Positions 1-63,977 of a stretch of DNA of 64,000 nt are shown one piece after another. Origin of the DNA: Leucoraja erinacea (lineage: Eukaryota); assembly GCF_028641065.1 (NCBI RefSeq), contig NC_073382.1, positions 81,282,001 through 81,346,000 on the forward strand, in the 5' to 3' direction. The stretch's first letter is position 1. Each line of letters starts with the position of its first letter. Below the pieces are notes generated by a model that saw only the letters and a list, made by a program, of their open reading frames with translations, was not told where the DNA came from and searched no databases. Made by a program: the position numbers and the translations under genes.

Positions 1-345
1 TAGACACAAAATGCTGGAGTAACTCAGCGGGCCAGGCAACATCTCTGGAGAGAAGGAACGGGTGATGTTTCGGGTCGAGACCCTTCTTCAGACTGAGCTC
101 AAGCAGACGCAATGTGTAGGAAGGAACTGCAGATGCTGGTTTACACCGAAGATAGTCACAAAATATTAGAGTAACTCAGCGGGACAGGCGGCATCTCTGG
201 AGAGAAGGAATGGGTGACGTCTCTGAAGAATGGTCTCCACCCAAAATGTCACCCATCTCTTCTCTGCAGAGATGCTGCCTGTCCCGTTGAGTTACTCCAG
301 CACTTTGTGTCGGTGTAAACCAGCATCTGCAGTTCTTTCCTACAC
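1..345. mobile_element. Penelope-derived terminal repeat cluster (tandem plus inverted copies)
   Basis: Repeated GCTGGAGTAACTCAGCGGG..GCATCTCTGGAGAGAAGGAATGGGTGAC and its reverse complement. The same family lies at ~470-690, 1283-1455, 2062-2160, 3650-3780, 19598-19830, 26460-26655, 41215-41690 and 48468-48593. Confidence 0.7.
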
Positions 346-1946: not shown

Positions 1947-4683
1947 ATGCCCATCCAAGGTCTACTCCGCCATGCCTCAGGGGCAAGAGTTTCTCATTCA
2001 ACATTATTAATTTTCCAATTCCCAACGTCATTAATAACAGAGGTCTTATCTTTGGATAAAATCTGAAGAAGGGTCTCGACCCGAAATGTCGCCTATTCCC
2101 TTCGCTCCATAGATGCTGCCTCACCCGCTGAGTTTCTCCAGCATTTTTGTCCACCTTCTTATCTTTGGACATCAGTAGAAAACCCGCTGTGTTGCTCAGC
2201 AGTGATTTCCAATCCTGGTTCTATGAATTGGGGCTAGGAGGGGGAGGGGGGGACTTCATTCAGTCTGCACCCAGATCTGTGAGTTGAAATAGTTTTGGTT
2301 CAGGAAGTGGAGACTTTTCATTTAAGTTTGATGTCTTTTTGCTATTTATTTTCTTGGGGTTTGAGTTGACTGCTTACTAAGTCCACAGACTCTCTCAGCA
2401 CAGACTTCCAGAGTTCCATGCCATGTTTCGTCTGTTACTTTTTTTTAAAATTCAAAATGTATTTTCATAGTAATTTATTTGAGAACTTTAAATAGAGGGA
2501 GAAGCAATAATATTGAAGTATTTGGATGCCTTGCACTTTGTGAAATGCCGATTAACTCATTTGTTCTGTAACACACCGGGTTGTGTGAAAGGTGTTCTCA
2601 TCGTCGACCAAGCCTGCTGGAGATTGTGCAGCGCCTCTGGCTTGTTTAAGTTGCTGGAAAAAATCGAAGGTAGACTAAAATGCTGGAGTAACTCCGCGGG
2701 TGAGGCAGCATCTACGGAGCGTAGATGCTGCCTCACCCGCTGAGTTTCTCCAGCATTTTTGTCTACCTCTGGCTTGTTGGTGCATTGGCAAAGACAAACA
2801 CTGTGTAAATGCTGCTTACTTTGTTGCCCTTGCTGCTGCGATCCAATCAACTTCATCACCGCGTATTGGAGTCAGGAAGGGGGCCGGCGGTGAATTGGGA
2901 ACGTCCGACTCCGGTTCACCTGTCCACGTTCGGATTCAAGGGCGTGGAATCGCTGGGAAGCGTTCACCTTTGCAAATCCGCAGCCACCCACGAGAAACGG
3001 ATGCTGAACGTCGACAGGGCGGCATTGTGCGAGCTGGAGCCGCTGCCTGGAAGTCGGCTTTGCACCACCCGACATCAGCTGCTGCCGCAGCACCCGGAGC
3101 GGACTGGAGCTGAGGTGTCTGTGTGAGACAGTTGAACTGTGCAACCTCTGCTGGGGTTCCCGTGCATCTGGCTCTGACAGTGTTATTGCCTCATGGCTTC
3201 TGCCCCTTGACCGTGAGCTTTTGTGATGATTTTCTCCTCTTCCCACACTACCCTCACCTCCAGGGCTAATATTTCAAGAGCCACACAGGAGAGTGGGGTC
3301 GATGCAAACTGAACTATGTCCATTAGGTTTTAATTTTGTTGTGCGCCTGCATTTGCAGCTACATCAATGTGGCGCCTGAGATATGGAAAGAGTTTGCAAT
3401 GTATCTGTGGTGATGAAGCCCCCTCCATCTTTCCCTTCCCCCCGTCCACCTCTCTTCCCTCCTCTGGCTTCACAATATCCACCTGTTCTATCCATGTCAC
3501 ACCTTTTTGCATTTGCATTTCTGGCCTTTCTCCAACCATCTGACAATCAACTCCCCCCCCCCCCACTCATCACCTGTATCCACCTATCACTCGCCAGGGT
3601 TTATCCTGCCTCTCCACTCTTCCAGCTTTCTTACCCCAGACTGCAATCAGTCTGAAGAAGGGTCCCGACCCAAAACATCACCTTTCCATCTTCTCCAAAG
3701 ATGCTGCCCGACCAGCTAAGTTACTCCAGCACTCTGTGTCATATTCTTGTGTAAGCCAGCATCTGCAGTAGTTTGTGTCTCCCACAGCTTCCATCCTGAC
3801 CTCTCCCACACTTGGCCCCTTTCTACCCACACGTTCACTCTCTCTAGAAATCAGCGTGCTTTACAATCGAGGCTTGCTGCACCATCCCGTTCCCATCTGG
3901 CCTTCCCTTCTGTTGTCCAACCTCCGTTGTCCAATCCCACAGATTGTTGATCCTGCCACTTCCTGTTTCCTTTTGACCTCGGCAGTGACCTGTGTTGTTC
4001 TATTACAAAGATTAATGTTTTTTTGGGGGGGGCTCTATGAATATGAACATTCAAATTATTAAATCGGTGGATTTAAAATGTTCGTTCTCGTGCCAAGAGA
4101 GGGGACGGTCTCTCGATAAGCTGTATTTCTTGTGTTCAGTGTTGGTATATTTATTTATGAATTAAAGTCTATATTAAAAAAAAGTGACGTCTGACTTTGG
4201 CTTTACGAGGATGTTGCCAGGACTAGAGGGTGTGAGCTACAAGGAGAGGTTGAGTAGGCTGGGACTCTATTCCATGGAGCACAAGAGGATGAGGGGTAAT
4301 CTAAAAGAGGTGTATAAAATCATGAGAGGAATAGATCAGATAGATGTACAGAGTCTCTTGCCTAGAGTATGTGAATCGAGGACCAGAGGACATAGGTTCA
4401 AGGTGAAGGGGAAAGGGTTTAATAAGAATCTGAGGGGTAACTTTTTCACACAGAGGGAGGTGGGTGTCATGAGCTGCCAAAGGAGGTAGTTGAGGCTAGG
4501 ACTATCCCAACTTTTAAGAAACAGTGGATAGAACAGGTTTGGAGGGATATGGACCAAGTGCAGGCAGGTGGGACTAGTGTTGGCCAGTATAGGCAAGTTG
4601 GGCCGAAGGGCCTGTTTATACGCTGTATCACTATCTCTCTCTGACTATTGCTGTGTCCACATCATGTGTTATCTTGCGATCAA

Positions 4684-9109: not shown

Positions 9110-9790
9110 TTTTGACACCCCTATCATAAGGCAAGTTTCCCACTTTCCAAATGTTCTTAATATCTAATAGGGAGGTTTCACGGCAGTCGGGTCACGACCC
9201 ATGACCCGTACTGTTGCTACGCTATGCCAAGTGGAGTACACGCGATGAACTGCAGGTAGGCACTGACCATTGTTTCCAGCGTAGCGGGCCCATTAAAACC
9301 CGCTGAAATTGTCAATTTTTGCGCTGTAAATAATTATGGAAATCGGGATAATTGTGAGAGACATTTAGCCTACTTCAGAATTCCAAAAGTGAGGAGAAAT
9401 AACGGTAGATAGAAGCGAGAGCTGAAGGGACAACAACAGCCAGAGTGCTTGGCGAACATTGGCCATTTGCTCATTGCATTTCATCAACTAAGGCATTTTT
9501 TGTGTTTTTTATTGATTCCTTTGGCATCTAAAAAGTTTCAGAAGTGATAAATCTGGCTGTAAAATTTTAAAATCGCCCATGGTTCTCAAGTGGGGTTTTA
9601 CATACAAAAAGAAAAACGCCTCTGAAGCGAAATTTACAACCAGATTTATCACTTCTGAGACTTTTTAGATACCGAAACTTCCGCCATTTCAGTAACCCCG
9701 ACCCGAATCACGCTCAGTGTAATGAGCGTTGCGGGGAACATTTTATGTATTTTTAAATGTTTTAAATGTTTTTTTAAATTTTAGTTTTAA
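9110..9790. mobile_element. Probable non-autonomous DNA transposon with internal inverted repeat
   Basis: AT-rich non-LINE segment with ~48-bp inverted arms at 9520-9567 and 9630-9677. Boundaries are approximate. Confidence 0.4.
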
Positions 9791-9931: not shown

Positions 9932-10424
<493 letters not shown>

Positions 10425-11802: not shown

Positions 11803-12905
11803 ATCATTTCATTTCATTATCCACTTGCATTGCCACCTTCAAACATCCACAGACGTGTACGTCGACGTCCCTCTGGTACTCAACGCTCCCCAGGGCCCTG
11901 CCGTTCATGGTAGACTTCCAACCCCACTCATCCACACCTTGCACTTTCAGGAATAAATTGTTCCCCATTCTCCTGCCCCAACTGTGCAAACTTTGAGACA
12001 GGATTAAGAATCATTTGGTCATTCATCACAGGTCCTCCCTGCCCGTTCCACTCTAATCCTGTTTGGCCCACATTCTTCCTGTAAAATGTCTTTTAAAAGT
12101 TGTTACGGAACCTAGAAACATAGACAATAGGTGCAGGAGTCAGCCATTTGGACCTTCGAGCCAGCACCTCCATTTATTGTGATCATGGCTGATCATCCAC
12201 AATCAGTAACCCATGCCTGCCTTCACCCCATATCCCTTGATTCCGCTAGCCCCTCGAGCTCTTTAAATTCATCCAGTGAATTGGCCTCCACTGCCTACAG
12301 TGGCAGAGAATTCCACAAATTCACAACTTTCTGAATGAAAAGGTTTTTCCTCGTCTCAGTATTAAATTGCCACCCCTTTATTCTTGGACTGTGGCCCCTG
12401 GTTCTGGACTCACCCAACATTGGGAACATTTTTCCTGCATCGAGCTTGTCCAGTCCTTTTATAATAATTGTATACATTTCTATAAGATGCCCCTCATCCT
12501 TCCAAATTTCAGTGAATACAAGCCCAACACAAGTACCTGCCTCACCTACCTGGTAGGTGTGTGGGACGAGCTGCCAGAGGAGGTATTTGAGGCAGGTACT
12601 ATCACAATGTTCAAAATATATTTGGGCAGGTACTTGGATAGGAAAGCCTTAGAGGGATATGGGCCATGCATGGGGCTAGGGTAGATGGCCATGGGCAAGT
12701 TGGGCCAAAGAGCCTGTTTCCTCTCTGAGTGACTGTGAAATGTAACTTTTTTACAGTTTGGTCACAAATTAGTTTATTGTCACGTGTACCGAGACTTTGC
12801 ATGTAATAATTTGCAATAATTTGCATGTTTATTTATTAATTCTGTTTCTAACCATGGAAGAGTTGGATTTAGCTCTTCAGGACTAAAGGAATCAAGGGAT
12901 ACGGG

Positions 12906-13112
12906 GTAGATAAAAATGCTGGGGAAACTCAGCGGGTGAGGCAGCATCTATAGAGCGAAGGAATAGGTGATGATTCGGGTTGAGACGTCTGAAGAAGGGT
13001 CTCAACCCGAAACGTCACCTATTCCTTCGCTCCATAGATGCTGCCTCACCCACTGAGTTTCTCCAGCATTTTTATCAACCTTCGATTTTTCCAGCATCTG
13101 CAGTTCCTTCTT
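12906..13112. mobile_element. Palindromic Penelope-derived insertion
   Basis: ~80-bp inverted arms (12906-12986 and 12999-13080) around the hammerhead core. Confidence 0.7.
12989..13020 (+). ncRNA. Minimal type I hammerhead ribozyme motif (Penelope terminal repeat)
   Basis: CTGAAGA-A-GGGT(ctca)ACCC-GAAACGTC^ACCT: intact core, stem II and palindromic ACGT. Confidence 0.6.
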
Positions 13113-13256
13113 AATCAAGGGATATGTGGTACTGATTGTGGATGATCGGCGATGATCATATTGAATGGCGGTGCTGGCTCGAAGGGCCGAATGGCCTACT
13201 CCTGCACCCTATGTTCCATCACCATCCTATCTTCTCTTCTTCGTGCAGGGTTGAGT

Positions 13257-13457
13257 ATGGCGACTGACAGCCTCTCCAGTGCCTTCACTTTGTTTGAGAG
13301 CATCCAGCCTGGTCCCGTGTACCGCATCCCCTCTCTCCTCTACCTCAACAGCCACCAGGTCTTCCTGGCGTTTGCAGAGAAACGAACATCATCCTCCGAT
13401 GTGGACGCCAAGATTCTGGTTTTACGGAGAGGGAAGTTTCAAGATGGATCTGTGGAG
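13257..13457 (+). CDS. Sialidase (NEU3/NEU2-like) coding exon 1
   Basis: Acceptor TTCGTGCAG|13249, ATG 13257, YRIP motif, FLAFAEKR, LVLRRG. Phase-0 donor GAG|GTTGGT. Confidence 0.9.
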
Positions 13458-14712: not shown

Positions 14713-15941
14713 ATGTGTGTTTTCATGGCTGATCATCTAAAATCGGTAATGTTTTAGATGTTTTCTGTTTAGTCATTCGTAACTTCTTTCGCCCTAGAGC
14801 TAAATTTTACTCTCTCTTGTTACACCATATGGCAAAGACAATAGTAGGCCATTCGGCCCTTCGAGCAATAAACTTATTTTCTTGAGATAATGGCTGATCA
14901 TCCCCAATCAGTACCCGTTCCCTGCTTCCTGCCACCAAAGTGGATAACCTCACATTTATCTTTAAGTGCCCTATATCTAGCTCCCTCTGGAAAGTATCCA
15001 GAGAACTGGACTCCACCACCCTCTGTACATTGAAAATGATCACCAATGCATCCACGATTTCTCTACTGATTTATCTGCCTTCAGTCCCAACAGTTTACCT
15101 GACACAATTTCCTGACTAATGTGAATTCCCTTCAGTTCCTCCCTCCCACTAGATCCTCGGTCCCCTGGTATTTCTGGGAGATTGTTTGTGTCTTCCTTAG
15201 TGAAGACAGAACCAAAGCACTTGTCCTGCCATTTCCTTGTTTCCCATTATAAATTCACCTCTCTCTGATTGTAAGGGACCTAGATTTGTCTTCACTAGTC
15301 ATTTCCTTTAAACATATGGAAAGAAGCTTTTACAGTCAGTTTTTATATTCCCAGCAATCTTTCTTTCGTGACTAAACGTTATTCCTGTACATTGTAAATG
15401 GCTCGATTGTAATCACGTATTAGACAATAGGTGCAGTAGGCCATTCGGCCCTTCGAGCCATTCAATGTGATCATGGCTGATCATCCCCAATCAGTACCCC
15501 GTTCCTGCCTTCTCCCCATATCCCCTGACTCTGCTATCTTTAAGAGCCCTATCTAGCTCTCTCTTCAAAGTATCCAGAGAACCGGCCTCCACCGCCATCT
15601 GAGGCAGAGAATTCCACAGACTCACAACTCTCTGTGAGGAAAAAGTGTTTCCTCGTCTCCGTACATGTGACACTGTACCTGGGTACACGTGACAATAAAC
15701 GAAACTGAATCGATGGTCTGAGCTGCATGTACTTATAGGTACATGTGACTATAAAAAGTAATTGAATGAATCATTGTGGCCTCTGTTCTCCACGCTGTAT
15801 TGTGGCAGCGGAGAAGACAGGAGAATGGGGTTAGGAGGGAGAGATAGATCAGCCATGATTGAATGGCGGAGTAGACTTGATGGGCCGAATGGCCTAATGC
15901 TGTGCTCCTATTATTTCTGACCTGTTGTTTCCCATTCACAG

Positions 15942-16919
15942 TGGGACGAGTCAGTGGAGCTGAGTACTGCTGTGAAGAGCGGTTACCGTTCGATGAATCC
16001 TTGCCCTGTGTACGAGCGGATGAAGCAAGTGGTCTACCTCTTCTTTAACTGCGTGGAGGAGGGGGTGAACGAGTGCAGCCAGGTGCTGTGGGGCAGGAAC
16101 GCGGCCAGGCTGTGCTACGTGACGAGCCAGGACGCGGGGCTCACCTGGGGCCAGGTGACCGACCTGACGGAGAGTGTGATCGGCGAGGAGGTGCGGCATT
16201 GGGGCACCTTCTCCGTCAGCCCCGGCCACGGCATCCAGCGGGTGTGCGGCACGCTGATAGTGCCAGCCTACGCCTACATCATCCGCAATCGGTGCTGCCT
16301 GATACCGCCCGGCTTCTTCACCAAACCCCGCACCTTTTACCTGTACAGCGAGGACGGAGGTGAGCGCTGGAGTGTGGGCGAGCCAGTATCGCGGTGCGGG
16401 ACCGGGGAGAGCGAGATGGCGGAGATCACCGTGTCGTACGGTAACCGGGTGCTGTACTGTAACGCTCGGACCGTCGGCAGGCCCCTGTCGTGCCGCCGCC
16501 CGTCGCGAGTGGAAGCGGTCAGTTTGGAGCCCGGGCGATTCGAGATCGTTCACTCGGCCCGGCAGCTGCCCGAGAGCGACAGCGGCTGCCAGGGCAGTGT
16601 GCTCAGCTTCAGCTGCCCCGCCAGCGACCGGCTCTCCTGGCTCCTGTACGCCCACCCCGTCGGCAGCGGCAAGGACCGGTGGTGGAGACACTGCCGTAAC
16701 CGCACCAACCTGGCCTTTTACCTGAACCGCAGGCCCCTGGAGCAGCGCCACTGGGAGGGGCCCTGGGTAGTCCAGCCGGGGCCCAGCGGCTACTCAGACC
16801 TGGCCTACCTGGACCAGGCATCAACCTTCGCCTGCCTGCATGAGTGCGGTGATCGGCAACCCAACGAGAGGATCGACTTCCGTCTCTTCAGCATCGACGA
16901 CGTGCTGAGGAACATCTAG
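15942..16919 (+). CDS. Sialidase (NEU3/NEU2-like) coding exon 2; spliced protein 392 aa
   Basis: Acceptor CCCATTCACAG|TGG, in frame with exon 1. RSMNPCPVY, Asp boxes SQDAGLTW and SEDGGERW, PGHGIQ, YCNAR, GCQGS, catalytic SGYSDL and HECG. Stop TAG at 16917-16919. Confidence 0.92.
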   Translation, partial: WDESVELSTAVKSGYRSMNPCPVYERMKQVVYLFFNCVEEGVNECSQVLWGRNAARLCYVTSQDAGLTWGQVTDLTESVIGEEVRHWGTFSVSPGHGIQRVCGTLIVPAYAYIIRNRCCLIPPGFFTKPRTFYLYSEDGGERWSVGEPVSRCGTGESEMAEITVSYGNRVLYCNARTVGRPLSCRRPSRVEAVSLEPGRFEIVHSARQLPESDSGCQGSVLSFSCPASDRLSWLLYAHPVGSGKDRWWRHCRNRTNLAFYLNRRPLEQRHWEGPWVVQPGPSGYSDLAYLDQASTFACLHECGDRQPNERIDFRLFSIDDVLRNI

Positions 16920-16949
16920 CAGCGAGGCCGAGGGGTGGCAACATCATTG

Positions 16950-17332
16950 AAACATAGACAATAGGTGCAGGAGGAAGCCATCAAGGCAGCACCGCCATTC
17001 AATGTGATCATGACTGATCATCCCCAATCAATACCCCGTTCCTGCCTTCTTCCCATATCCCTTGATTCCGTTAGTCCCAAGTGCTAAATATAACTCTCTC
17101 TTGAAAACATGCAGAGAATTGGCCTCCACTGCCTTCTGTGGCATGGAATTCCACAGATTCACAACTCTCTGGGTGAAAAAGCTTTTCCTCATCTCAGTCC
17201 TAAATGGCCAACCCCTTATTCTGAAACTGTGACCCCTGGTTCTGGACTCCCCCAATATCGGGAACATATTTCCTGCATCTAGCCTGTCCATTCACTTAAG
17301 AATTTTATATGTTTCTATAAGATCCTCTCTCA
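16950..17332 (-). mobile_element. CR1 LINE 3' fragment just downstream of the sialidase stop
   Basis: ORF2 C-terminus; an oppositely oriented copy lies at 17588-18092. Confidence 0.85.
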
Positions 17333-18092: not shown

Positions 18093-19834
18093 GTGTGTTT
18101 GGAGTGTGGGAGGAAACCGGAGCACCCGGAGAAAACCCACTTAGATCACGGGGAGAACGTACAAACTCCGGACAGGCAGCATCCGGAGGCAGCAGCTCTA
18201 CCAACTGCACCACCGTGCCGCCCTAGTGACTACGGTCACTCCTGCAGCTGGAAATTACCCCTGCTAACGAGCATACATGTAGCATGCCTGCACGTGTAAC
18301 ACGTATATACACGCATGCCACACACCCACCACGCATGATGCAGTCCCGTATACACACCCCCTTTCCCCACACAGATTAACTTTTAATTTCATAACCTGTA
18401 GACAATTCCAATTTTCAGTTTAGTTTATTGCCACGTGTACCGTGGTACAGTGAAAAGCTTTTGTTGCGTGCTAACCAGTCAGCGGAAAGACAATACACGA
18501 TTACAATCGAGCCGTCCACAGTCTACAGGTAATAACATTTAGTGCCAGGTAAAGCCAGATCAAAGATAGTCCGAGGGTCACCAATGAGGTAGATAGTAGT
18601 TCAGGACTGCTCTCTAGTTGTGGTGGGATGGTTCAGTTGCCACAGACGGCTGTGGAGGCCAAGTCAGTGGATATTTTTAAGGTGGAGATAGATAGATTCT
18701 TGATTGGTGCGGGTGTCAGGGGTTATGGGGAGAAGGCAGGAGAATGGGGTTAGGAGGGAGAGATAAATCTGCCATGATTGAATGGTGGAGTAGACTTGAT
18801 GGGCCGAATGGCCGAATTCTGGTCCTGTGGCCGATGAAGTTAGGACCTTCACTGTGAACGGCAGGCCTCTGGGGAGTGTTGTACAGCAGAGGGATCTAGA
18901 AATGCAGGGACTTAGTTCCTTGAAAGTGGCATGGCAGGAAGAGAGGGGTTTGGGTATCTTTGGCCTTCATCAGTGAGGATGTTGACTGGAGGAGTTGGGA
19001 TGTTATTACACGATTGTACAAATGATGGTGAGACTGCTGTTGTTTTACTATAGTAGTTTTTATAACTATCTACAATAGTTTATTTACAGGTACAAAGTGG
19101 CAGAGAAAATGCCGCTCTCAGGAGATAGGTATCTTAAATAAGGAATATACATGACAGTATCAAAGCAAAACCTTCTAACTTTCATCCAGGAAGCACTCAA
19201 GCCGTACGGGTGTCTGGGGTTATGGGGAGAAGGCAGGAGAATGGGGTTAGGAGGGAGAGATAGATCAGCCATGATTGAATGGCGGAGTAGACTTGATGGG
19301 CCGAATGGCCTAATTTTGCTCCCATTACTAATGACCTTAAGCCCCTGTGGTGCCCAGTGGGGCAGGGGGAGGTGGAAGTCAGCTGTAGGCCCCATGTTCT
19401 CTCACACTGCCAAGCCAGCTAGTATTTGCGTCGTTCTCAGGGAGACTCCATCACTGGATCATCCCTGAAGCTGCTTCACGGTTATCACAGACCAGTTTAC
19501 ATTGCCAGAGACATTATTCCATGCACTCCAGTATAAATAAATATCAACTATTTATCAATGAAACCGTTTGCTTGACATCTTCTCACGCGGAGTTAAGACA
19601 GAAAAAGCCGGAGTAACTCAGCGGGACAGGCGGCATCTCTGGAGAGAAGGAATGGGTGACGTTTCAGGTCGAGATCCTTCATCAGATTGCTGACCCGAAA
19701 TGTCACCCATTCCTTTTCTCCAGAGATGCTGTCTGACCCGTGGAGTTACACCAGTTTTTTGTGTCTATCTTCGGTTTTAACCAGTTTATTTGTGTCTATC
19801 TTCAGTTAAACCAGCATCTGCAGTTCCTTCTGTG

Positions 19835-35852: not shown

Positions 35853-37554
35853 CTATTGCACTTGGCAGCTGCGAGGAGCTAGTATCTTTGGCTGCTTTCA
35901 CCACATCTGCCCACAGCTCCAGCCCTCTTCTGCCATCTATTTATCTAACCTGCAGGTTGTGGGGAAGAGCGTAACGTACATAAATTCATAAATTTCATGT
36001 CACAGGAGCATTCAGCCCATCAAGTCTACTCCGCCATTCAATCATGGCAGATCTATCACTCCTTCCTAACCCCATTCTCCTGCCATCTCCCCATAACCTC
36101 TGACACCCGTACTGATCAAGAATCTATCTATCTCTGCCTTCACGGCCTTTGCAGCCGTCTGTGACAAAGAATTCCACAGATTCACCACCCTCTGACTAAA
36201 GAAATTCCTCCTCAACTCCTTCCTAAAAGAACATCCTTTAATTCTGAGGCCGTGACCTCTGGTCCTATACTCTGCCACTAGTGGAAACATCCTCTCCACA
36301 TCCACTCTATCCAAGCCTTTCACTATTCTGTAAGTCTGTGGAATTCTCTACCTCAGAGGGCAGTGGAGGCCGGTTCTCTGGATGCTTTCAAGAGAGCTAG
36401 TTAGGGCTCTTAAAGATAGTGGAGTCAGGGGATATGGGGAGAAGGCAGGAATGGGACCATGATCACATTTAATGGCTCGAAAGGCCAAATGGCCTACTCC
36501 TGAGCCTATTGTGTATTGTCTATTGTCTATTGTACCTTTTCAATGAGATCCCCCCTCATTCTTCTAAACTCCAGCGAGCACTGACCCAGTGCCGTCAAAC
36601 GCTCATCATAGGTTAATCCGCTCATTCCTGGGATCATTCCCGTACAAGTAAGTAAACTACAGGCCCACCACCGACATTCCGGCAACCAGCGGGCCGGCAC
36701 CTCTTTTAATCCGGACAAATTTACGAGAGCGAGTTTGAAATCCCCCTGGAAGTCCCCCCGGAAATGTGGCCACCAGGCCGGGTGAGCCGGCCGATCTCCA
36801 CCTCATCGGGACTTCCGAATCTGCCCCCTGCTGCCGAGGCCCAGTCGAGGGCCGGCAGATCCGTTCCCATAGCCGACTATCGAGGCCGACTTTGCAGGCC
36901 GGTATCTCGGCCTCTCGGCGGCCTAGGCGGAAGGTTCCGGTACCGTTGGACTCCTCTTGGAGGCCGTGGCCTCTGTTGGTGCGGCAACGTGGTCCGGCAA
37001 CATCTCACCAGGGACTAACTTTACTGTACCACTCTACTGCTTTTTTAAAAATTGCTGTTTTTTCCCCTTTTTCCTTCCACCCACAATATTTAATATGTAA
37101 AAGAATATGTAATTCTGTTCCATTCTGTTTGTAGTTTGTTTGGTTGTTTGTTTGTTTGTCCTTTTGCACAAAGTCCGCGAGCATTGCCAATTTTCATTTC
37201 ACTGCACATCTCGTATGTGTATGTGATGAATAAACTTGACTTGACTTGACTTGACCTTGACTTGACTTGACCCAGAAAGGCTCTGGAACCAAAGGTGCCG
37301 GAAAATCAGTGGTGGAGTTAAGAGTCACGAGTGTTTTATTGTCACATGAAATTCTTACTTGCTGCAGTACAACAGAATATGTGAATATGTCAACATTGTA
37401 TATAACGGGTGGAAAGAAGAAAAAGTTCAATAAATACTACTTGTTATTGCCGATCGTGCACTACTGCCGAGTAAGGGATTACAGAATGCTCGAGGATCAT
37501 TGTATAAGTAGTAGGGACAAAGAACTGCAGATGCTGGTTAATACACAAAAGGAC

Positions 37555-37836
37555 ACAAAGTTCTGGAGTAACTCAGCGGGTCAGGCAGCATCTGTGGAGA
37601 ACATGGTTAGGTGACGTTTCACAGAGTGCTGGAGTAACTCAGCGGGTCAGGCAGCATCTGTGGAGAACATGGTAGGTGACGTTTCACAGAGTGCTGGAGT
37701 AACTCAGCGGGTCAGGCAGCATCTGTGGAGAACGTGGATAGGTGACGTTTCACAGAGTGCTGGAGTAACTCAGCGGGTCAGGCAACATCTGTGGAGAACG
37801 TGGATAGGTGACGGTTCACAGAGTGCTGGAGTAACT
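37555..37836. repeat. Same 66-bp tandem repeat, ~4 copies
   Basis: Near-identical unit to the 30.7-kb array. Confidence 0.9.
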
Positions 37837-39625: not shown

Positions 39626-42192
39626 CCTCTCCTCTCTCCTCTCATCTCCCCCCTTCTCCTCTCCCTGTCTCCTCGTCTCTCCTCTCTCTCTCTCCTCTCC
39701 TATCCTCCTCCCTCTCCCTCTCCTCGCCTACCCTCCAATCCTCTCTTTTCCTTCCCTCTCCTCCTCTCCCCCCCCATCCCCCTCTCATCTCCTCCCCCCC
39801 CCCCCCCCCCCCTCCCCCCTCCCCCCCCCCCCCCCCCCCCCCCCCCACATCCTACCCCCCTGCACCCCCCCCCCAACCCCCCCCCCCCCCCCCCCCGTGT
39901 GGATCACACTGCCCCGCCACAGGTAAGCAAAGACTTCATCGCTCTGGGGATTTGTGGGGGGTAGCGACCTGAACCTGTGACAGGATGGTTCGTAGCTGGA
40001 GGGAGGGTGAGGGGAGGGGAGGGGGAGAGGGGGGGGTGAGGAGAGTGGGGAGAGGGAGTGGGGAGAGGGAGTGGGGAGGGGGGGGTGGGGGCGTAGGGTT
40101 GGAGGGACCTGGATAAATGGATGCAGTTGGAATGGTGAAGGGGGGAAGGGGGGGGGGCAGGGCAGTGCCAATATAGCAGCATGTTGTAGATGGGCTGAAT
40201 GGCCTGTTAGTGTGCGGGTGGCAGATGGGGCAGTCGGAGGAGAGGCTGGAGTTACACAGGAAGATCCCAGGTACATGAGCTTGGATGTGGCAGGATGAAC
40301 CAGGATAGCGCGGCACCTCCTCACCACACCACCCCCCCCCCCCCCCCCCCCAGTGTGACCTTCACTCACCCCAGCCCCTCCCCCCCCCCCCTCCCCCTCA
40401 CCCTCGCCCCCCCTCTCATCCCCGCCCCCCCCCCCCCACCCCACCCCCCCCCCTCACCCCCCCCCCTCCCCCCCCCCCCCCCCTCACCCTCGCCCCCCCC
40501 TAGAGCATGGTACTCCCTCACCCCTGCCTCACCACCCTCCCCCCCCTCACCACTGCCCCATCCTAAGGGCAACCTTTCCACACAGAGGGCGGTGGGTGTA
40601 CGGAACGAGGCAGTTGGCAGAGATTCTCACAACATTTAAAATACATTTGGGCAGGTACATGGATAGGACCGGTTTGGAGGGATCTGGGCCGAACGCAGGC
40701 AGGTGGGACTTGCATTGATGGGGCATGTTGGTTAGTATGGATGAGTCGGGCCGAAGGGCCTGTGCCCGTGCTGTGTGACTCCCCTCCTCTCTCCCACGTC
40801 CTTTTGCTTCGGCTCGAAGTAGAGACTCCTGGCATGGACTTGGGAGTCGGAGACAGGGATTAGATGATTTTTTGTTTTAATTGTCATGTGTACCGTGGTA
40901 CAGTGAAAAGCTTTTGTTACATGCTGACCAGTCAGCGGAAAAACAATACATGATTACAATCGAGCCATCCACAGTGTACAGATTCAGGATAAGGGAATAA
41001 CGTTTAGTGCAAGGTAAAGCCAGCAAAGTCCGATCGAGATAGATTCAAGATTCAAGAGAGTTTATTGTCATGTGTTCCAGATAGGACAATGAAATTCTTG
41101 CTTTGCTTCAGCTCAACAGACTATAGTAGGCATAAATAAATACAGAACAGATCAGTGTGTCAATATACCATTGAATATATATATATATACACACATAAAT
41201 AAACCTATAAACAGGTAGACACAAACTGCTGGAGTAACTCAGCGGGTCAGGCAACATCTCTGGAGAGAAGGAATGGGTGATATTTCGGGTCGAGACCCTT
41301 CTTCAGAGTTACTCCAGCATGTCGTGTCTATCTTCGATTGTAACCAGCGTCTGCAGTTCCTTCCCACACAAAGGGCAGTGGTATGAATATTGATTTCTCT
41401 CACTTCAGGTAGCCCCGGCATTCCCTCTCTCTCTATCCCTCCCCCACACAAGTCGCACCAGCTTCTTGTTCTCATCCAGCAAACCGCTAACAATGGCCCG
41501 TTTACTTTCTCATCGTGCCTTTTTTTGCATATCTTTCATTCATTGTTCTTTATCTCTCCACATCACCAGCTATATCTCTCGTTTCCCTTATCCCTAACCA
41601 GTCTGAACAAGGGTCTCGACCCGAAACGTCACCCATTCCTTCTCTCCAGAGATGCTGCCTGTCCCGCTGAGTTACTCCAGCATTGTGTGTCTGTCAGGGG
41701 ATAGTCAGAGGGTCTCCAGTGAGGTAGCGGGTAGTTCAGGGCTGCAGTTAGGGGGAAAGGGCGCCCCTCTATCTCTCTCCCCCCCCCCCCCCCTTACTGG
41801 ACCTGCCCCCCTCCCCCAGCCAGGGGCGGTCTCTGCACGTGATGGACGCGGCTGGACAGCAATGGTCAGCGGACAGCTGGTGGCCAAAATTAGCCCGGGA
41901 CTTATTCCGGGAATTGGTTTATCCACGGGGGGAGGTGGGGGTGGGAGGGGGAGAGGAGGCCGGGACAGAGCAGGATCATTTCCTGCCCCCCCCCCCCCCC
42001 CCCCCACCCTCCACCCCTCTCTCTGACTGACTCTGAGGCTCTGGAGAGGGACGAGGGGAAGGGGGGAGATGGGAAGGGTCGCCTTGAATGACAGACACCC
42101 CTCCCAAGGTCAATCCATTCCCCATTCCCCATCCCACCTCTCCCTCTCTCGCTCCTTCTCTCCCTCCCTCCCTCTCTCGCTCCCTCACTCCC

Positions 42193-43163: not shown

Positions 43164-43878
43164 ATACATGATTACAATCGAGTCATTCACAGTGTACAGA
43201 TACATGAGGAGGTAGTTGAGGCATGAACTATCACATTTAAAAGATACTTGGACAGGTACATGGCTAGGACAGGTTGACAGGTGTTTTTCCCAAATACGTC
43301 AGGTGGGACTGGTGTAGATGGGACATGTTGGTCGGTATGGGCAAGTTGGGCTGAAGGGCCAGTTTCTGCGCAGTATCATTCTGGAGTTCAGAAGGATGAG
43401 AGGGTATCATATTGAAACATATAAGATTGTTAAGGGCTTGGACACGCTAGAGGCAGGAAACATGTTCCCGATGTTGGGGGAGTCCAGAACCAGGGGCCAC
43501 AGTTTAAGTATAAGGGGTAAGCCATTTAGAACGGAGACGAGGAAACACTTTTTCTCACAGAGAGTTGTGAGTCTGTGGAATGCTCTGCCTCAGAGGCCGG
43601 TTCTCTGGATATTTTCAAGAGTGAGCTAGATAGGGCTCTTAAAGATAGCGGAGTCAGGGGATATGGGGAGAAGGCAGGAACGGGGTACTGATTGGGAATG
43701 ATCAGCCATGATCACATTGATTGGCGGTGCTGGCTCGAAGGGCCGAATGGCCGACTCCTACACCTCTTGTCTATTGTTTCTGCGCTATGACTACGAGTAT
43801 AATGAAGATGGGCCGAAGGGCCAGTTGAGTTGCAGTGTGACTGTGTTGTTGTGTCCACAGGTGCGTGTGGCCGGAGTG

Positions 43879-44448
43879 ATGGTGACCATCCGAGTGATGC
43901 TGCTGGGCAGTGAGCTGGTGGGCAAGACCTCGCTGGTGGTCTGCTTGACCACCCGCCTCTTCCCCCGTGACAGCCTGCCCACGGTCTTCGACTCCTTCAG
44001 CACGCAGCTGCGCCTGGGCGAGCGGACGGTGGTGCTGAACGTGTGGGACACGGCTTCGCAGGAGGAGCACCGCCTGTCCGTGCGCCAGTTCTACTACCCG
44101 CTGGCCGACATCTTCCTCATCTGCTTCTCCATCGGCGACCCCTCCTCCTTCGAGCGGGTGTGGGCCGACTGGTACCGCGAGGTGCGCCAGCACCGGCCCG
44201 ACGTGCCCGTGCTCCTGGTGGGCACCAAGAAGGACCTCCGGCAAGAACAGGCCGCCGCCGGCCAGCGCCAGGCCGCGCCCGTCTCCTACCAGCAGGGGGC
44301 CCGGCTGGCCCGCAGGATGAGGGCCGTCAAGTATCTGGAATGTTCCGCCCTGCAGCGGGAGGGGGTGGGCGAGGTCTTCGAAGAGGCCGCCAGGGCCGTC
44401 TTGAGGGGGGGGCGCTCCAAACGCACCCGATCCTGCGTGCTGACGTGA
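43879..44448 (+). CDS. RhoG-like small GTPase, atypical, 189 aa, single coding exon
   Basis: Acceptor GTGTCCACAG|43861, ATG 43879. GxxxVGKT, PTVFD, WDTA.QEE, LLVGTKKDLR, YLECSALQ and C-terminal RSCVLT; collinear with RhoG. Confidence 0.9.
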   Translation: MVTIRVMLLGSELVGKTSLVVCLTTRLFPRDSLPTVFDSFSTQLRLGERTVVLNVWDTASQEEHRLSVRQFYYPLADIFLICFSIGDPSSFERVWADWYREVRQHRPDVPVLLVGTKKDLRQEQAAAGQRQAAPVSYQQGARLARRMRAVKYLECSALQREGVGEVFEEAARAVLRGGRSKRTRSCVLT

Positions 44449-45637
44449 CCCCCCCCCCCCCCCCCCCCCCCTCTCCTCCCCCCCCCCCCCCCCCCCTATA
44501 ATGTTACCAGGACTGCAGGGAGAGGTTCAACACAATTGGGACTATATTCATCAGAGGATGATTCAGTTCAGTTTAGTCTATCGTCCCGTGTACCGAGGTA
44601 CAGTGAAAAGCATTTGTTGCGTGCTAACCAGTCAGCGGAAAGACAATACATGATTACAATCGAGCCGTCCACAGTGTACAGATACAGGATAAAGGGAATA
44701 ACGTTTCGTGCAAAATAACTCCGATCAAGGATAGTCCGAAGGGGTCTCCAATGAGTTAGCTGGTAGTCCAGGGCGATCTTAACGAGGTGGATAAAATCAT
44801 GAGGGGAATAGATCGGGTAGACGCACAGAGTCTCTTGGCCAGAGTAGGGGAAGCGAGGACCAGAGGACATAGGTTAATGGTGAGAGGGGAAAGATTTAGT
44901 AGGAACTCGAGAGGTAACGTTTTCCACACAGAGGGTGGTGGATGTATGGAACAAGCTGGCAGAGGAGGTGGTTGAGGCTGGGACTATCGCAACGTTTAAG
45001 AAACATTTGGACAGGTACATGGATAGGACAGGTTTGGAGGGATATGGGCCAAACGCAGGCGGGTGAGACTAGTGTAGATGTTGGTCAGTGTGGGCAAGTT
45101 GGGCCGAAGGGCCTGTTCCCATGCTGGGTGACAATGTGGAAACAGGCCCCTCATTAATGTCGCTAGAAATGAACCAATCTCCCAGTTTCCTAAACCCTTC
45201 AGAAGGGTCCCGACCCGAAACATTCTCCAGAGATGCTGGTCCCGAGATGCTGCCCGACCTGCTGAGTTACTCCAGCACTCGAAACGTTCTCCACAGATGC
45301 TGCCTGACCCACTGAGTTACTCCAGCACTCTGTGAAACGTCATCTATCTACGTTCATCAGTGTCGGCAGGGATAAGTTTGGCCAAAGAGCCTGTTTACGT
45401 GTTGTATGACTCTGTGACTCTCAAAGGGTTATGGGGGTTTTCTAACAGTTTGCAGTGCTCTTAGGGCGAAGCCATTCTGCCTGTCAAGCCTGTGCTATCC
45501 CTATGAGAGAGAGTTGTTCGCCCAAAGTTCTTGCCATTGGTTGTCTGCCAAATTGGCTTAAAGATTGACTCATCTTGCAGCCGATGGAATAACAGAAACT
45601 TCTAGAAACACTCGTGGGTGGGGGGGGGGGGGGGGGC

Positions 45638-56265: not shown

Positions 56266-57836
56266 CCTCCCTCCCCTGTCCCATCTCCACCCAGCAGTGA
56301 GATGCTGCAGATGTTCTATTAACCATATAACAATTACAGCACAGAAACAGGCCATCTCGGCCCTTCTAGTCCATGCCGAACACTTATTCTCCCCTAGTCC
56401 CATCTACCTGCACTCAGACCATAACCCTCCATTCCTTTCCCGCCCATATAACTATCCAATTTATTTTTAAATGATAAAATCGAACCTGCCTCCACCACCT
56501 CCACTGGAAGCTCATTCCACACAGCTACCACTCTCTGAGTAAAGAAGTTCCCCCTCATGTTACCCCTAAACTTCTGTCCCTTAATTCTCAAGTCATGTCC
56601 TCAAGTTGTTCCTACTCTCAGTGAATCTTATCCACGTCAACTATGTCTATCCCTCTCATCATTTTAAAGACCTCTATCAAGTCCCCCCTTAACCTTCTGC
56701 GCTCCAAAAATAAAGACCTAACTTGTTCAACCTTTCTCTGTAACTCAGCCATGATCACATTGAATGGCGGTGCTGGCTCGAAGGGCCAAATGGCCTACTC
56801 CTGCACCTATTGTCTATTCGATCTGAAGAAGGATCTCGACCCGAATCGTCACCTATTCTTTTGCTCCATAGATGCTGCCTCTCCAGCATTGTTGTCTACC
56901 TTCTACCAATCGGTGGTGGCCAGTGCCATCTTCTTCACTGCCGTGTGCCGGGGCATCAGGGCGAAGGCTGCGGACGCCAACACGGTCAACAAACTCATCA
57001 GGAAGGCCGGCTCCGCCCTGGGAGGTTGGTCTTGGCGGGGAGGATGTTCCTCAAACTGCGGAGCATCCTGGACAATACAGCTCACCCCCTCCGTGACACA
57101 CTGGCCAACCTGAGGAGCACCTTCAGCAACAGACTGGTTCCACCAAGATGCAGCACACAACGCCACAGGAGATCCTTCTTCCCTGTGGCTATCAAACTGT
57201 ACAACCCCTCCCCCTTCTGTTATGTGGTACGCTGACTCCCCTCCCTCTCTCCCCAATCTTTGCACATCCCCAATCCTTTCCACTCGTCACTTTAACCTCA
57301 TTAAACAGGTTGAGTCGGCTGGGTCCGGATTCCTTGGAGCGCAGGAGGATGAGGGGTGATCTTATAAAATCATGCGAGGAATAGCTCGAGTAGATGTACA
57401 GAGTCTCTCGCCCAGAGTAGGACCAGACATAGGTTTAAGGTGAGGAGGGGATGATTTAATAGGAACCTGAGAGGCAACTTTTTCACACAGAGGGTGGTGG
57501 GTGTATGGAACAAGCTGCTAAGGAGGTAGTTGAGGCTGGGTCTATCCCAACGTTTAATAGACATTTGGACAGGTACATGGATAAGAAAGGTTTAGAGGGA
57601 TGTGGGCCAAACGCGGGCAGGTGGGACTAGTGTAGATGGGACTTGTTGGTCAGCATGGATAGGTTGCGCTGAAGGGACAGTTTCTGTCTGTGTGGAGTTT
57701 GCACGTTTGGCAAGGATGAGCTGGAAGAGGCTTTGCATGGTTTCATTGAGAAACAAGGTGGCTATTTAGATCTCTCCTCTCCTTTCCTCTCCTCTCTCCT
57801 CTCCCCTCCTCCCTCCACTCCTCTCCTCTCCCCGCG

Positions 57837-59480: not shown

Positions 59481-61074
59481 GTTCTTGGAAACTGCCTCCT
59501 CACTCATCCCTCCACCTCTTCCCTCTCTTTGCCTTGCTCACTCCCCACCTCCCTCCACCTTCCCTCCCCCCACACCCTCGCTCCCTCCCCTCTCCCCTCG
59601 CCCCTCACCTCCTCTCTGTGTCTATCCAAATTGGAAATGGTGCCAAGGTTTACGAGGATGTTGCCAGGACTCGAGGGGCCTGAGGTTGAGGGAGAGGTTG
59701 GGGGAGGGGTTGGGGGCAGGGAGAGGTTGGGGGCAGGCTGGCACTTTAATCAATGGAGGGCAGGAGGATGAGGGATGATGTTACAGAGGTGTATAAAATC
59801 ACGAGGGAAATAGATCAAAGGAATGAAAGAGTATTTTATTGTTACTTGTTCCAATTAAGGTACAGTGATACTCAATTTCAGGTAGATGCACAGAGTCACT
59901 TGCCAGTAGACAATAGGTGCAGGAGTAGGCCTTTCAGCCCTTCGAGCCAGCACCGCCATGCAATATGATCATGGCTGATCATCCCCAATCAGTACCCCCC
60001 GTTCCTGCCTTCTCCCCATATCCCCTGACTCTGCTATCTTTAAGAGCCCTATCTAGCTCTCTCTTGAAAGTATCCAGAGAACCGGCCTACACCGCCCTCT
60101 GAGGCAGCGAATTCCACAGATTTACAACTATGTGAAAAAGTTGTTTCCTCGTCTCCGTTCTAAATGGCTTTTCCCTTATTCTTAAACTGTGGTCCCTGAT
60201 TCTGGACTCCCCCAACATCGGGAACATGTTTCCTGCCTCTAGTGTGTCCAAACCCTTAATAATCTTATATGTTTCAATAAGAAACCCTCTCATCATAAAT
60301 TCCAGAGTGTACAAGCCCAGCCGTTCGATTCTCTCAGCATATGGCAGTCCCGCCACCTTGGGAATTAACCTTGTAAACCTACGCTGCACTCCCTCAATAG
60401 CAAGAATTGCCCATAGTAGGGGAATCGAGGACCAGAGGACATGGGTTTAAGGTGAGGGGGGAAAGAATTAATAGAAACCTGAGGGGTAATCTTTTCACAC
60501 AGGTGGTGGGTGTATGGAACAAGCTGCCAGAGGAGGTAGTTGAGGCTGGGACTATCACAATACTCTGTAATGTCTATAACAATATAACAATCTGAAGAAG
60601 GGTCTTGACCCAAAACGTCGCCTTTTTCCTTCACTCCATAGATGCTGCCTCACCCGCTGAGTTTCTCCAGCACTTTTGTCTACCCATAACAATATTTAAA
60701 ATATATTTGGACAGGTACATGGATTTATTTGGACAGGTTTAGAGGGATGTGGGCCAAACGCAGGCAGGTGGGACTAGTGTAGATTGGACATATTGGCCAG
60801 TGTGTGCAAGTTGGGCCGAAGGGCCTGTTTCCGCGCTGTATCACTCTGTGACTTGTTTACCGGTCACAGACTCATGGGGAGGACGATGTTTCAGGTCATT
60901 TCAGGATATTTTTAATGCAGCTATAGACAGATTCTTGATCAGTACGGGTGTCGGGGGTTATGGGGAGAAGGCAGGGGAATGGGGTTAGGGGGGAGAGATA
61001 GACCAGCCATGATTGAATGGCGGAGTAGACTTGATGGGCCGAATGGCCTAATTCTGCTGTTATCACTGGTGAAG

Positions 61075-63374: not shown

Positions 63375-63977
63375 TAGGTAATGTTTCAGGTCTGGACTGA
63401 AGAAGGATCCCGACCCGAAACGTCACCTATCCATGTTCTCCACAGATGCTGCCTGACCCGCTGAGTTACAGTAGCTCTGGAGAGAAGGAACAGGTGACGT
63501 TTTGGGTCGAGAGCCTTCTTCAGACTGAGAGTCAGGGGAGAGGGAGACGCAGAGATAAGGAAGTGTAAGGTGTGAAAACAAGACATCAAAGGGGATGCCT
63601 CGAGGGAGAAAGTTTAGCCACATGTGTTGCATCTCTACATGCGGTTGCAGGGGAACGTACCTGGGGAAAGGGGTGGTTTGGGTGGGAAGGGATGAGTTAA
63701 CCAGTGAGTTGCGGAGGGAACGGTCTCTGCAGAAAGTGGAGAGGAGGTGGCAAACATTTCGGAGGATGATGTGTTGTATGTGACAGCTGGTGGGGTGGAA
63801 GGTGAGGACTAGGGGGACTCTGTCTCTGTTGCGACTAGGGGGAGGGGGAGCAAGGGCGGAGCTGCGGGGTACCGAGGAGACACGAGTGAGGGCCTCATCT
63901 ATGATGGGGGGGTGAGGGGAACCTCCGTTCCCTAAAGAATGAGCACATCTCGGATGTCCTGGTATGGAACACCTCAC
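63375..63977 (-). mobile_element. Penelope-like element fragment with inverted terminal repeats
   Basis: NRDRVPLVLTFHP...IILRN...RDRSLRNSLV is typical of the PLE RT-to-GIY-YIG linker; adjacent hammerhead-bearing repeats occur in both orientations. Confidence 0.75.
63397..63428 (+). ncRNA. Minimal hammerhead motif beside a Penelope ORF remnant
   Basis: CTGAAGAAGGATCCCGACCCGAAACGTC^ACCT; one stem II mismatch. Confidence 0.45.

What the first reader, a model, noticed from the sequence alone, without database searches (positions are those of the whole stretch)
12906..13112. Abundant repeat family carries minimal type I hammerhead ribozymes
Seen: consensus CTGAAGA-A-GGGT(ctcg)ACCC-GAAACGTC^ACC. 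Cores are intact at 12989(+), 34431(+, CUGAUGA), 63397(+), 19655-19685(-) and 31034-31064(-). Variants occur at 61-91(-), 2063(+) and 41276-41305(-), and core-broken copies at 3652, 10159, 41603, 56823 and 60593. Known: Penelope-like elements carry minimal type I hammerheads whose stem III is reduced to a palindrome (here ACGU) and which are thought to cleave as dimers; a PLE ORF remnant at 63.4-64 kb is joined to this repeat. Inference: roughly one motif per 5 kb implies a very large genomic ribozyme load. The copy at 12989 is sense to the sialidase, ~230 nt before its acceptor, and is sequestered in a long hairpin that could silence cleavage.
Basis: partly seen in the sequence, partly recalled or inferred. 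Interest (0 to 1): 0.7.

Follow-up and report, generated by a model that had tools for sequence, protein, structure and literature searches.

The report
Penelope retrotransposon ends carrying fossil hammerheads
The repeat is the end piece of a very abundant Penelope-type jumping gene in a shark/ray-type fish and carries the letters of an already described tiny self-cutting RNA (hammerhead); the scattered copies decay like neutral DNA and show no orientation bias in the introns tested, so they likely do not cut host RNAs and the motif likely works only inside the parent element.

Summary
The motif is real and far beyond chance. It is the 3' pseudo-LTR of a Neptune-type Penelope-like element (PLE) in a cartilaginous fish, sense to an RT-GIY-YIG ORF (100 of 126 ORF ends). 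It matches the published PLE minimal hammerhead, but helix I is only 2 bp, so most copies escape the published descriptor. Scale: about 455,000 motif-spanning copies, about 107,000 with intact core, 19,848 perfect matches. Only 20.4% of copies keep all 13 core letters, as matched flank letters do (20.8%). In seven large genes intact copies lie 19 sense against 19 antisense. Copy ends do not pile up at the cut site. The hairpin at 12905-13112 is the ordinary PLE 5' inversion with a 12-bp target duplication. Side result: young 66-bp arrays of the substrate half sit inside older copies. This scan has noted the family, and the arrays, before on other DNA. Verdict: new member of a known kind.

The parts
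12890..12901 (.). left target-site duplication (12 bp exact)
12905..12986 (-). inverted, 5'-truncated pLTR arm without tail (model positions 23-105; lacks CUGANGA)
12987..13018 (+). minimal type I hammerhead motif: helix I 5' strand 12987-12988, CUGAAGA 12989-12995, extra A 12996, helix II 12997-13008, GAA 13009-13011, ACGU palindrome 13012-13015, C17 13016 (predicted cut after it), helix I 3' strand 13017-13018
12987..13112 (+). sense pLTR arm with the roughly 30-nt PLE tail; pairs with the inverted arm as one long hairpin
13113..13124 (.). right target-site duplication
13249..13457 (+). sialidase (NEU2/3/4-like) first coding exon, YRIP motif; joined to 15940-16962 in a relative's transcript contig
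34428..34462 (+). copy with CUGAUGA, 3-bp helix II and 3-bp helix I; the only window copy that passes the published descriptor
63397..63476 (+). copy with core letters but broken helix II and no helix I; tail-to-tail with the ORF-linked copy
63473..63531 (-). ORF-linked pLTR copy with native upstream UTR, G12 changed to A
63639..63905 (-). PLE ORF remnant (region between RT and the Cys linker)
19592..19784 (.). head-to-head pair; minus arm has CUGAUGA core (C3 19685), 1-bp helix I
30978..31066 (-). copy with core letters (C3 31064, GUA site, 1-bp helix I) that heads a tandem array
30640..30978 (-). five tandem 63-66-bp units holding only the GAAACGUC^ACC half of the motif
37519..37817 (-). second tandem array of the same 66-bp unit (4 units), no catalytic half
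1..96 (-). variant copy (C3 91), ACAU instead of the palindrome
2059..2161 (+). variant copy (C3 2063), AUGU, 1-bp helix I
41211..41311 (-). variant copy (C3 41306), AUAU, 1-bp helix I
3645..3775 (+). core-broken copy (G12 to A)
10150..10191 (+). core-broken copy (A14 to G)
41592..41721 (+). core-broken copy (G8 to C) with native UTR
56816..56929 (+). core-broken copy (A15.1 to U)
60587..60687 (+). core-broken copy (G12 to A)

Best explanation
The repeat is the terminal repeat (pLTR) of an abundant Neptune-type Penelope-like retrotransposon and carries a minimal type I hammerhead motif that is likely kept by selection in the transposing master elements, where it would cut only as a pair and probably with help from the element's protein, while the hundreds of thousands of inserted copies decay neutrally and likely do not cut host RNA. 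Shown: location in the 3' pLTR sense to the ORF; the core, extra A, 4-bp helix II, ACGU palindrome and 2-bp helix I; neutral decay of copies; no intron orientation bias; copy ends not at the cut site. Inferred: reverse transcription starts at one of two 3' points about 30 nt apart on mostly uncut RNA and often stops 3-5 nt before the core, giving solo stubs and head-to-head inversions such as 12905-13112; two motifs pair through ACGU/ACGU to form helix III only when held by protein.
For: Sense motif within 520 nt of the stop in 100 of 126 GIY-YIG C-termini. Near-full ORFs of 775-838 aa with RT, Cys linker and GIY-YIG; best named homologs from Mobula, Chiloscyllium, Rhincodon, Hypanus at 65-73%. 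Subfamily-level changes inside the motif fall in loop II, at 11.4 (U-A to U-G), H17 (C to U), 1.1 (U-A to U-G) and unpaired 1.4, none in the 13 core letters at population level. H17 is G in 3 of 325 copies. All 13 core letters in 20.4% of 333 copies against 20.8% for matched flank sets. Seven genes, 800 kb: 102 sense/112 antisense motif-spanning, 19/19 intact. Of 682 hits 7 start at positions 39-41 (background about 5 per position) and 1 ends there, while 153 and 152 end at the two tail points. The active dimer fold lies 16-22 kcal/mol above the best dimer fold in 3 of 3 copies. Literature: same motif class, no monomer activity and low dimer activity (PMC4209133); protein-dependent cleavage and uncut RNA as the main template in the anole element (PMC11167929).
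Against: No cleavage assay. Selection in masters is only weakly shown: 0 of 13 core against 13 of 52 flank polymorphic positions gives p=0.055, and with subfamily consensuses (one 12-member cluster has G12 to A) p=0.28. The downstream 100 nt are conserved too, so the whole pLTR is constrained. Non-CpG core letters are slightly less changed than flank in the larger set (6.8% against 8.1%, p=0.013), though CpG core letters are more changed (28% against 24%, p=0.02). The intron test has 38 intact copies in 7 genes and cannot exclude a modest bias. Folding energies ignore tertiary contacts and magnesium.
Confidence: 0.8

Rival explanations
1. The motif is a catalytically dead relic in this lineage, kept because it overlaps the element's internal promoter or the RNA structure that the RT binds.
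For: Helix I is 2 bp with a U-A or U-G pair next to the core; the 2-bp examples in the published alignment are G-C rich. Family match in solo stubs begins 3-5 nt before C3, at TCAGT, which resembles an initiator (consensus recalled, not from a call); Penelope has an internal promoter in its pLTR (PMC2377424 passages). Templates look uncut. Naiad PLEs proliferate without canonical hammerheads (PMC8557442 passages).
Against: All hammerhead rules are met together (11 core letters, spacing, G10.1-C11.1, palindrome, NUH), and subfamily changes at paired sites keep pairing; a DNA promoter would not need that. The equally minimal anole motif cuts with protein.
Confidence: 0.13
2. One reading: tens of thousands of intact copies are live ribozymes that cut host pre-mRNAs unless silenced by hairpins.
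For: About 107,000 core-intact copies, 19,848 perfect ones; family reads are abundant in poly(A) libraries of related fish, on both strands; the 12989 copy is locked in a hairpin.
Against: No orientation bias; one ITPR gene carries 8 intact sense copies in 100 kb; 33 of 38 intact intronic copies lack an inverted partner; intact cores are neither preserved nor purged; none of the 6 listed read start/end pile-ups lies at the cut site (fragmented libraries, weak).
Confidence: 0.04
3. The 66-bp arrays that follow some copies (e.g. 31064) are substrate-only retrozymes: the host copy's catalytic half cuts each unit, and 66-nt monomers circularise and are copied by rolling-circle reverse transcription into older pLTRs.
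For: One shared seam exactly at G12, 18,764 exact matches; internal units 1.9% from their consensus against 6.4% for first units and 11% for the host 5' half, with host alleles of different subfamilies at both ends in 22 arrays; a unit can supply helix III in cis, extended by 3 bp.
Against: The cis fold is 9-17 kcal/mol above the best fold in 5 of 5 cases and the host halves are mostly decayed; arrays cluster regionally (24 exact seams on the 170-Mb contig C1, well over 100 in C2:24-26 Mb; none in 800 kb of genes), which fits DNA-level conversion or recombination; 20 loci were picked by an exact seam match, which favours young units. No circular RNA evidence.
Confidence: 0.07

Closest known systems
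Minimal type I hammerheads (min-HHR) in pLTRs of metazoan PLEs, Cervera and de la Pena 2014 (PMC4209133)
   Same: CUGANGAH core, unpaired base between 9 and 10.1, G10.1-C11.1, palindromic 15.2/16.2 without loop 3, NUH, location in pLTR, mostly solo or opposite-strand copies. The Culex quinquefasciatus row has the same plan (2-bp helix I, CGUC).
   Different: Helix I is 2 bp with U-A/U-G next to the core (descriptor needs 3-7 bp; 4 of 43 core hits in 800 kb pass); helix II 4 bp, shorter than most listed; estimated copy number 10-100 times the 4,000 (coelacanth) and 9,000 (Xenopus) reported; no cartilaginous fish found in the supplement text searched.
Poseidon element of Anolis carolinensis, Frangieh et al. 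2024 (PMC11167929)
   Same: pLTR hammerhead, two 3' ends 30-40 nt apart (tail), no sign of templates cut at the ribozyme.
   Different: There the ORF starts inside the hammerhead and the clade lacks the Cys linker; here the motif lies 90-225 nt after the stop of a Neptune-type ORF; protein-assisted cleavage was shown there, not here.
Neptune-clade EN+ Penelope-like elements (Craig et al. 2021, PMC8557442)
   Same: RT plus C-terminal GIY-YIG with CX2-5CxxC linker, 5' truncation, inverted 5' pLTR, optional tail.
   Different: Extreme excess of pLTR-only stubs; clade placement here rests on the linker motif, no tree was built.
Vertebrate non-LTR retrozymes (bioRxiv 10.64898/2026.07.22.740005)
   Same: pLTR-derived tandem repeats, multimers clustered in a few chromosome regions.
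   Different: Retrozyme units each hold a complete hammerhead; the 66-bp units here lack CUGANGA and helix II, and the main family is dispersed.

Membership tests
PLE minimal type I hammerhead | CUGANGA and GAAA-NN-UH core in order with correct spacing | tested here: met
   all subfamily consensuses but one 12-member cluster
PLE minimal type I hammerhead | unpaired nucleotide between A9 and 10.1 | tested here: met
   A in 309 of 324 copies
PLE minimal type I hammerhead | G10.1-C11.1 pair and helix II of 3-7 bp | tested here: met
   4-bp helix with YYCG loop in all 7 subfamily consensuses
PLE minimal type I hammerhead | palindromic 15.1-16.1, no loop 3 (dimer-only helix III) | tested here: met
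   ACGU in all 7 consensuses
PLE minimal type I hammerhead | helix I present (descriptor 3-7 bp; the authors also list 2-bp members) | tested here: inconclusive
   2 bp in consensus; 48 of 54 passing ORF-linked copies have exactly 2 bp; fails the descriptor but matches the 2-bp exceptions in Drosophila, Culex and Oikopleura
PLE minimal type I hammerhead | lies in the pLTR, sense to a PLE ORF | tested here: met
   100 of 126
PLE minimal type I hammerhead | site-specific self-cleavage as dimer or with protein | not testable with these tools
   needs bench assay
Neptune-type EN+ PLE | single ORF with RT and C-terminal GIY-YIG | tested here: met
   GIY-YIG E=0.014, below cut-off; homologs carry PF00078, PF01541
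Neptune-type EN+ PLE | CX2-5CxxC linker between RT and EN | tested here: met
   seen in L233 and L234 translations; feature from PMC8557442
Neptune-type EN+ PLE | inverted 5' pLTR and optional 30-40-bp tail | tested here: met
   55 head-to-head against 1 tail-to-tail; two end peaks
Neptune-type EN+ PLE | phylogenetic placement of the RT among named clades | not tested
   no named reference set in session
Non-LTR retrozyme | tandem units each with a complete hammerhead | tested here: not met
   66-bp units start at G12 and lack CUGANGA and helix II

The most novel reading that the evidence does not exclude
The 66-bp tandem arrays are a ribozyme parasite: units keep only the substrate half (ACGU palindrome and GUC cut site), borrow the catalytic half of a host Penelope hammerhead to be cut into 66-nt monomers, circularise, and home by rolling-circle reverse transcription into older pLTR copies at thousands of sites.
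Probability: 0.07. Interest if true: 0.75.

Novelty: new member of a known kind. Interest (0 to 1): 0.3.

Why it matters
As it stands the class is published; what this adds is scale and a clean negative. A vertebrate genome tolerates on the order of 100,000 core-intact hammerhead motifs, many in introns in sense, with no sign of purging. That is genome-scale support for the view, so far resting on one in vitro system, that PLE hammerheads are off unless the element's protein or a close partner holds them. It also shows that descriptor searches needing a 3-bp helix I miss about 90% of this family. Young, near-intact elements (L233, L234) give ready material to test whether a 2-bp helix I motif cuts.

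Tried and rejected
Rfam scan of the window found no hammerhead family at E<=10; Rfam models need a longer helix III, so this is no evidence against. Apparent one-strand polarity of arrays over C2:24-26 Mb was a listing artefact: the reverse-complement pattern listed other places there. Shared flanks (segmental duplication) as the source of arrays: flank matches are non-collinear repeats (output partly cut). A longer helix I across a 2x2 loop: possible only in some subfamilies, not general. Sequence continuing from the tail into an ORF start (tandem 5' pLTR): not found downstream of 194 tail-ending hits or upstream of 14 long ORFs, so the element's 5' end was not defined. RNAalifold on 7 consensuses did not recover the hammerhead fold and showed only one-sided changes. 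First upstream classification was contaminated by two inverted sequences and was replaced. Run search: no RNA holder listed. Upstream sialidase exon not located. Luense et al. 2017 (dimer cleavage) is not held; known only from its title and a review's summary. Paper searches for a report in sharks, skates or rays gave no direct description; listings only were seen. Supplements of the 2026 preprint, which sampled one chondrichthyan, and file 1 of PMC4209133 could not be seen and may bear on novelty.

Full report
Observation. The stretch 12905-13112 is one insertion flanked by a 12-bp target-site duplication (12890-12901 and 13113-13124). It has an inverted arm (12905-12986) and a sense arm that begins with GU-CUGAAGA-A-GGGU-CUCA-ACCC-GAA-ACGU-C^AC. 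A core pattern has 6 matches in the window and none in 100 shuffles. My re-implementation of the published descriptor without its helix I minimum gives 43 hits in 800 kb of genome against 7 in 4 Mb of Markov sequence. A profile built from 22 ORF-linked copies finds 51 hits in the window, 21 spanning the motif. When helices are checked, 2 of its 8 intact or variant copies (12989, 34431) keep both the palindrome and a helix I of 2 bp or more. Its five broken copies are broken as stated.

What the repeat is. The window lies in a 2.19-Gb genome. The ORF remnant at 63.6-63.9 kb is on the minus strand and has 33,517 first-look candidates genome-wide. It joins the minus copy at 63523, not 63397. Among 126 GIY-YIG C-termini in all fetched loci, 100 have the motif in sense within 520 nt of the stop, mostly at 90-120 or 165-225 nt. 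Fourteen loci picked for long frames show ORFs of 557-838 aa; the two I printed hold RT, a CxxxxCxxC linker and GIY-YIG. The linker marks the Neptune and Nematis clades (PMC8557442, passages). The best named homologs are from Mobula, Chiloscyllium, Rhincodon and Hypanus at 65-73% identity, so the host is a cartilaginous fish. In 800 kb of evenly spaced samples, 55 neighbouring pairs are head-to-head and 1 tail-to-tail. Of 682 hits, 153 and 152 end at two points about 32 nt apart. Inverted 5' copies and a 30-40-bp optional tail are standard PLE features. The hairpin at the finding (-151.8 kcal/mol) is therefore the ordinary insertion structure.

Anatomy of the motif. Seven subfamily consensuses (205 of 293 copies clustered) share CAGU-CUGAAGA-A-GGGU-YYCG-RCCC-GAAACGUY-RCC; one 12-member cluster has G12 to A at a CpG. 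Helix I is U-A or U-G plus G-C, then A opposite C in 195 of 333 copies. The published descriptor needs 3-7 bp (PMC4209133 supplement passages), and only 4 of 43 core hits in the sample pass it. The same paper lists 2-bp helix I members, G-C rich, in Drosophila, Culex and Oikopleura. Population-level changes inside the motif are in loop II, 11.4, H17, 1.1 and 1.4, all compatible with the fold, but the contrast with the flank is not significant (p=0.055 or 0.28).

Scale. 166 motif-spanning copies in 800 kb (80 stretches of 10 kb on contigs C1-C41) give about 455,000 genome-wide (bootstrap 381,000-526,000); 39 with intact core, palindrome and helix II give about 107,000 (74,000-142,000), 26 of the 39 with helix I of 2 bp or more. 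An exact 35-letter pattern has 19,848 matches, control 0. The published counts are about 4,000 in coelacanth and 9,000 in Xenopus, under a stricter helix I rule.

Do the copies matter as ribozymes? First, conservation. In 148 sample copies non-CpG core letters differ in 7.6% against 8.1% in the flank (p=0.58). In 333 copies the figures are 6.8% against 8.1% (p=0.013), while CpG core letters differ more than other CpGs (28% against 24%); all 13 core letters survive in 20.4% of copies against 20.8% for matched flank sets. Copies are neither preserved nor purged. Second, orientation. In 800 kb inside three ITPR and four dynein heavy-chain genes (bounds) there are 102 sense and 112 antisense spanning copies, 19 and 19 intact; 33 of the 38 intact copies have no inverted partner. 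Third, ends. 7 of 682 hits start at model positions 39-41, below the background of about 5 per position, and 1 ends there. Instead 94 of 166 sample copies are stubs whose family match starts 3-5 nt before C3, a point that earlier scan notes had raised and that I re-tested. Fourth, energy. The active dimer fold is -6 to -10 kcal/mol against -25 to -29 for the best dimer fold in 3 copies. Fifth, RNA. Raw poly(A) reads of two related-fish runs pile on the repeat (depth 1,790 and 3,765 at 13086, mostly 90-95% alike, so from other copies) and none of the 6 listed start or end pile-ups is at the cut site; such libraries are fragmented, so this is weak. A transcript contig joins 13247-13455 to 15940-16962 and has 26 further 5' letters that do not fit upstream, so 12989 is likely intronic; the exon matches sialidase-2 structures at E=5e-9.

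How it likely works. Shown: position, anatomy, neutral decay, no bias, uncut-looking ends. Inferred: master elements keep the motif; two copies pair ACGU with ACGU to build helix III, and with a 2-bp helix I this needs a chaperone. This follows the Schistosoma min-HHR, inactive as monomer and weak as dimer (PMC4209133, main text parts 1-2 of 4), and the anole element, whose hammerhead cuts only with its protein, is not needed for insertion, and leaves no reads ending at the site (PMC11167929, parts 1-2 of 4). A review summarises dimer cleavage as very slow (PMC6765202, passages).

Side result. The copy at 31064 heads five tandem units that begin at G12; a second array is at 37519-37817. The seam has 18,764 exact matches. 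In 22 arrays internal units are 1.9% from their consensus, first units 6.4%, host 5' halves 11%, and the outer parts carry alleles of different subfamilies; 20 of the loci were chosen by an exact seam match, which favours young units. So a young block sits in older hosts. A cis hammerhead can be drawn but lies 9-17 kcal/mol above the best fold, hosts are mostly decayed, and arrays cluster by region. Retrozyme multimers cluster too, but each unit has a full ribozyme (bioRxiv 10.64898/2026.07.22.740005, parts 1-3 of 5; supplements closed). An earlier scan note reached a DNA-conversion reading of these arrays; my data fit it better than a ribozyme route.

Verdict. A real, huge, but known kind of element. 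Five paper searches (listings only) found no description in cartilaginous fish, though the 2026 preprint sampled one chondrichthyan genome. This scan has reported the family many times in this and related genomes. New member of a known kind; interest 0.3.

Noticed in passing
window 30640-30978 (-), 37519-37817 (-), one seam near 45322 (+); L140, L247-L266: Young 66-bp tandem arrays of the substrate half of the motif, one shared seam, embedded in older pLTR copies of several subfamilies; regionally clustered.
   Followed up: partly
genome sample L061-L220: About half of motif-spanning copies (94 of 166; 109 of 214) are solo stubs whose 5' edge is 3-5 nt before C3, at TCAGT; possibly the RNA start.
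   Followed up: partly
window 13035-13075 region of the pLTR: Downstream stem-loop (AUGCUG/CAGCAU core) present in subfamily consensuses; array units carry changes that lengthen it; candidate RT-binding element.
   Followed up: partly
window 35324-35397 (+): tRNA-Gln(CUG) gene, 68.4 bits.
   Followed up: no
window 9530-9666: Near-perfect 137-bp hairpin unrelated to the pLTR, MITE-like.
   Followed up: no
window 13249-13457 and 15940-16919 (+): Two coding exons of a NEU2/3/4-type sialidase.
   Followed up: partly
window 43702-44448 (+): Open frame that reads like a Rho-family small GTPase ending in a CAAX box (family recalled, not searched).
   Followed up: no
L233, L234 (G000:C1339, C12): Young PLE copies with 838- and 775-aa open frames and intact motif; many identical-scoring RT hits suggest recent activity.
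   Followed up: partly
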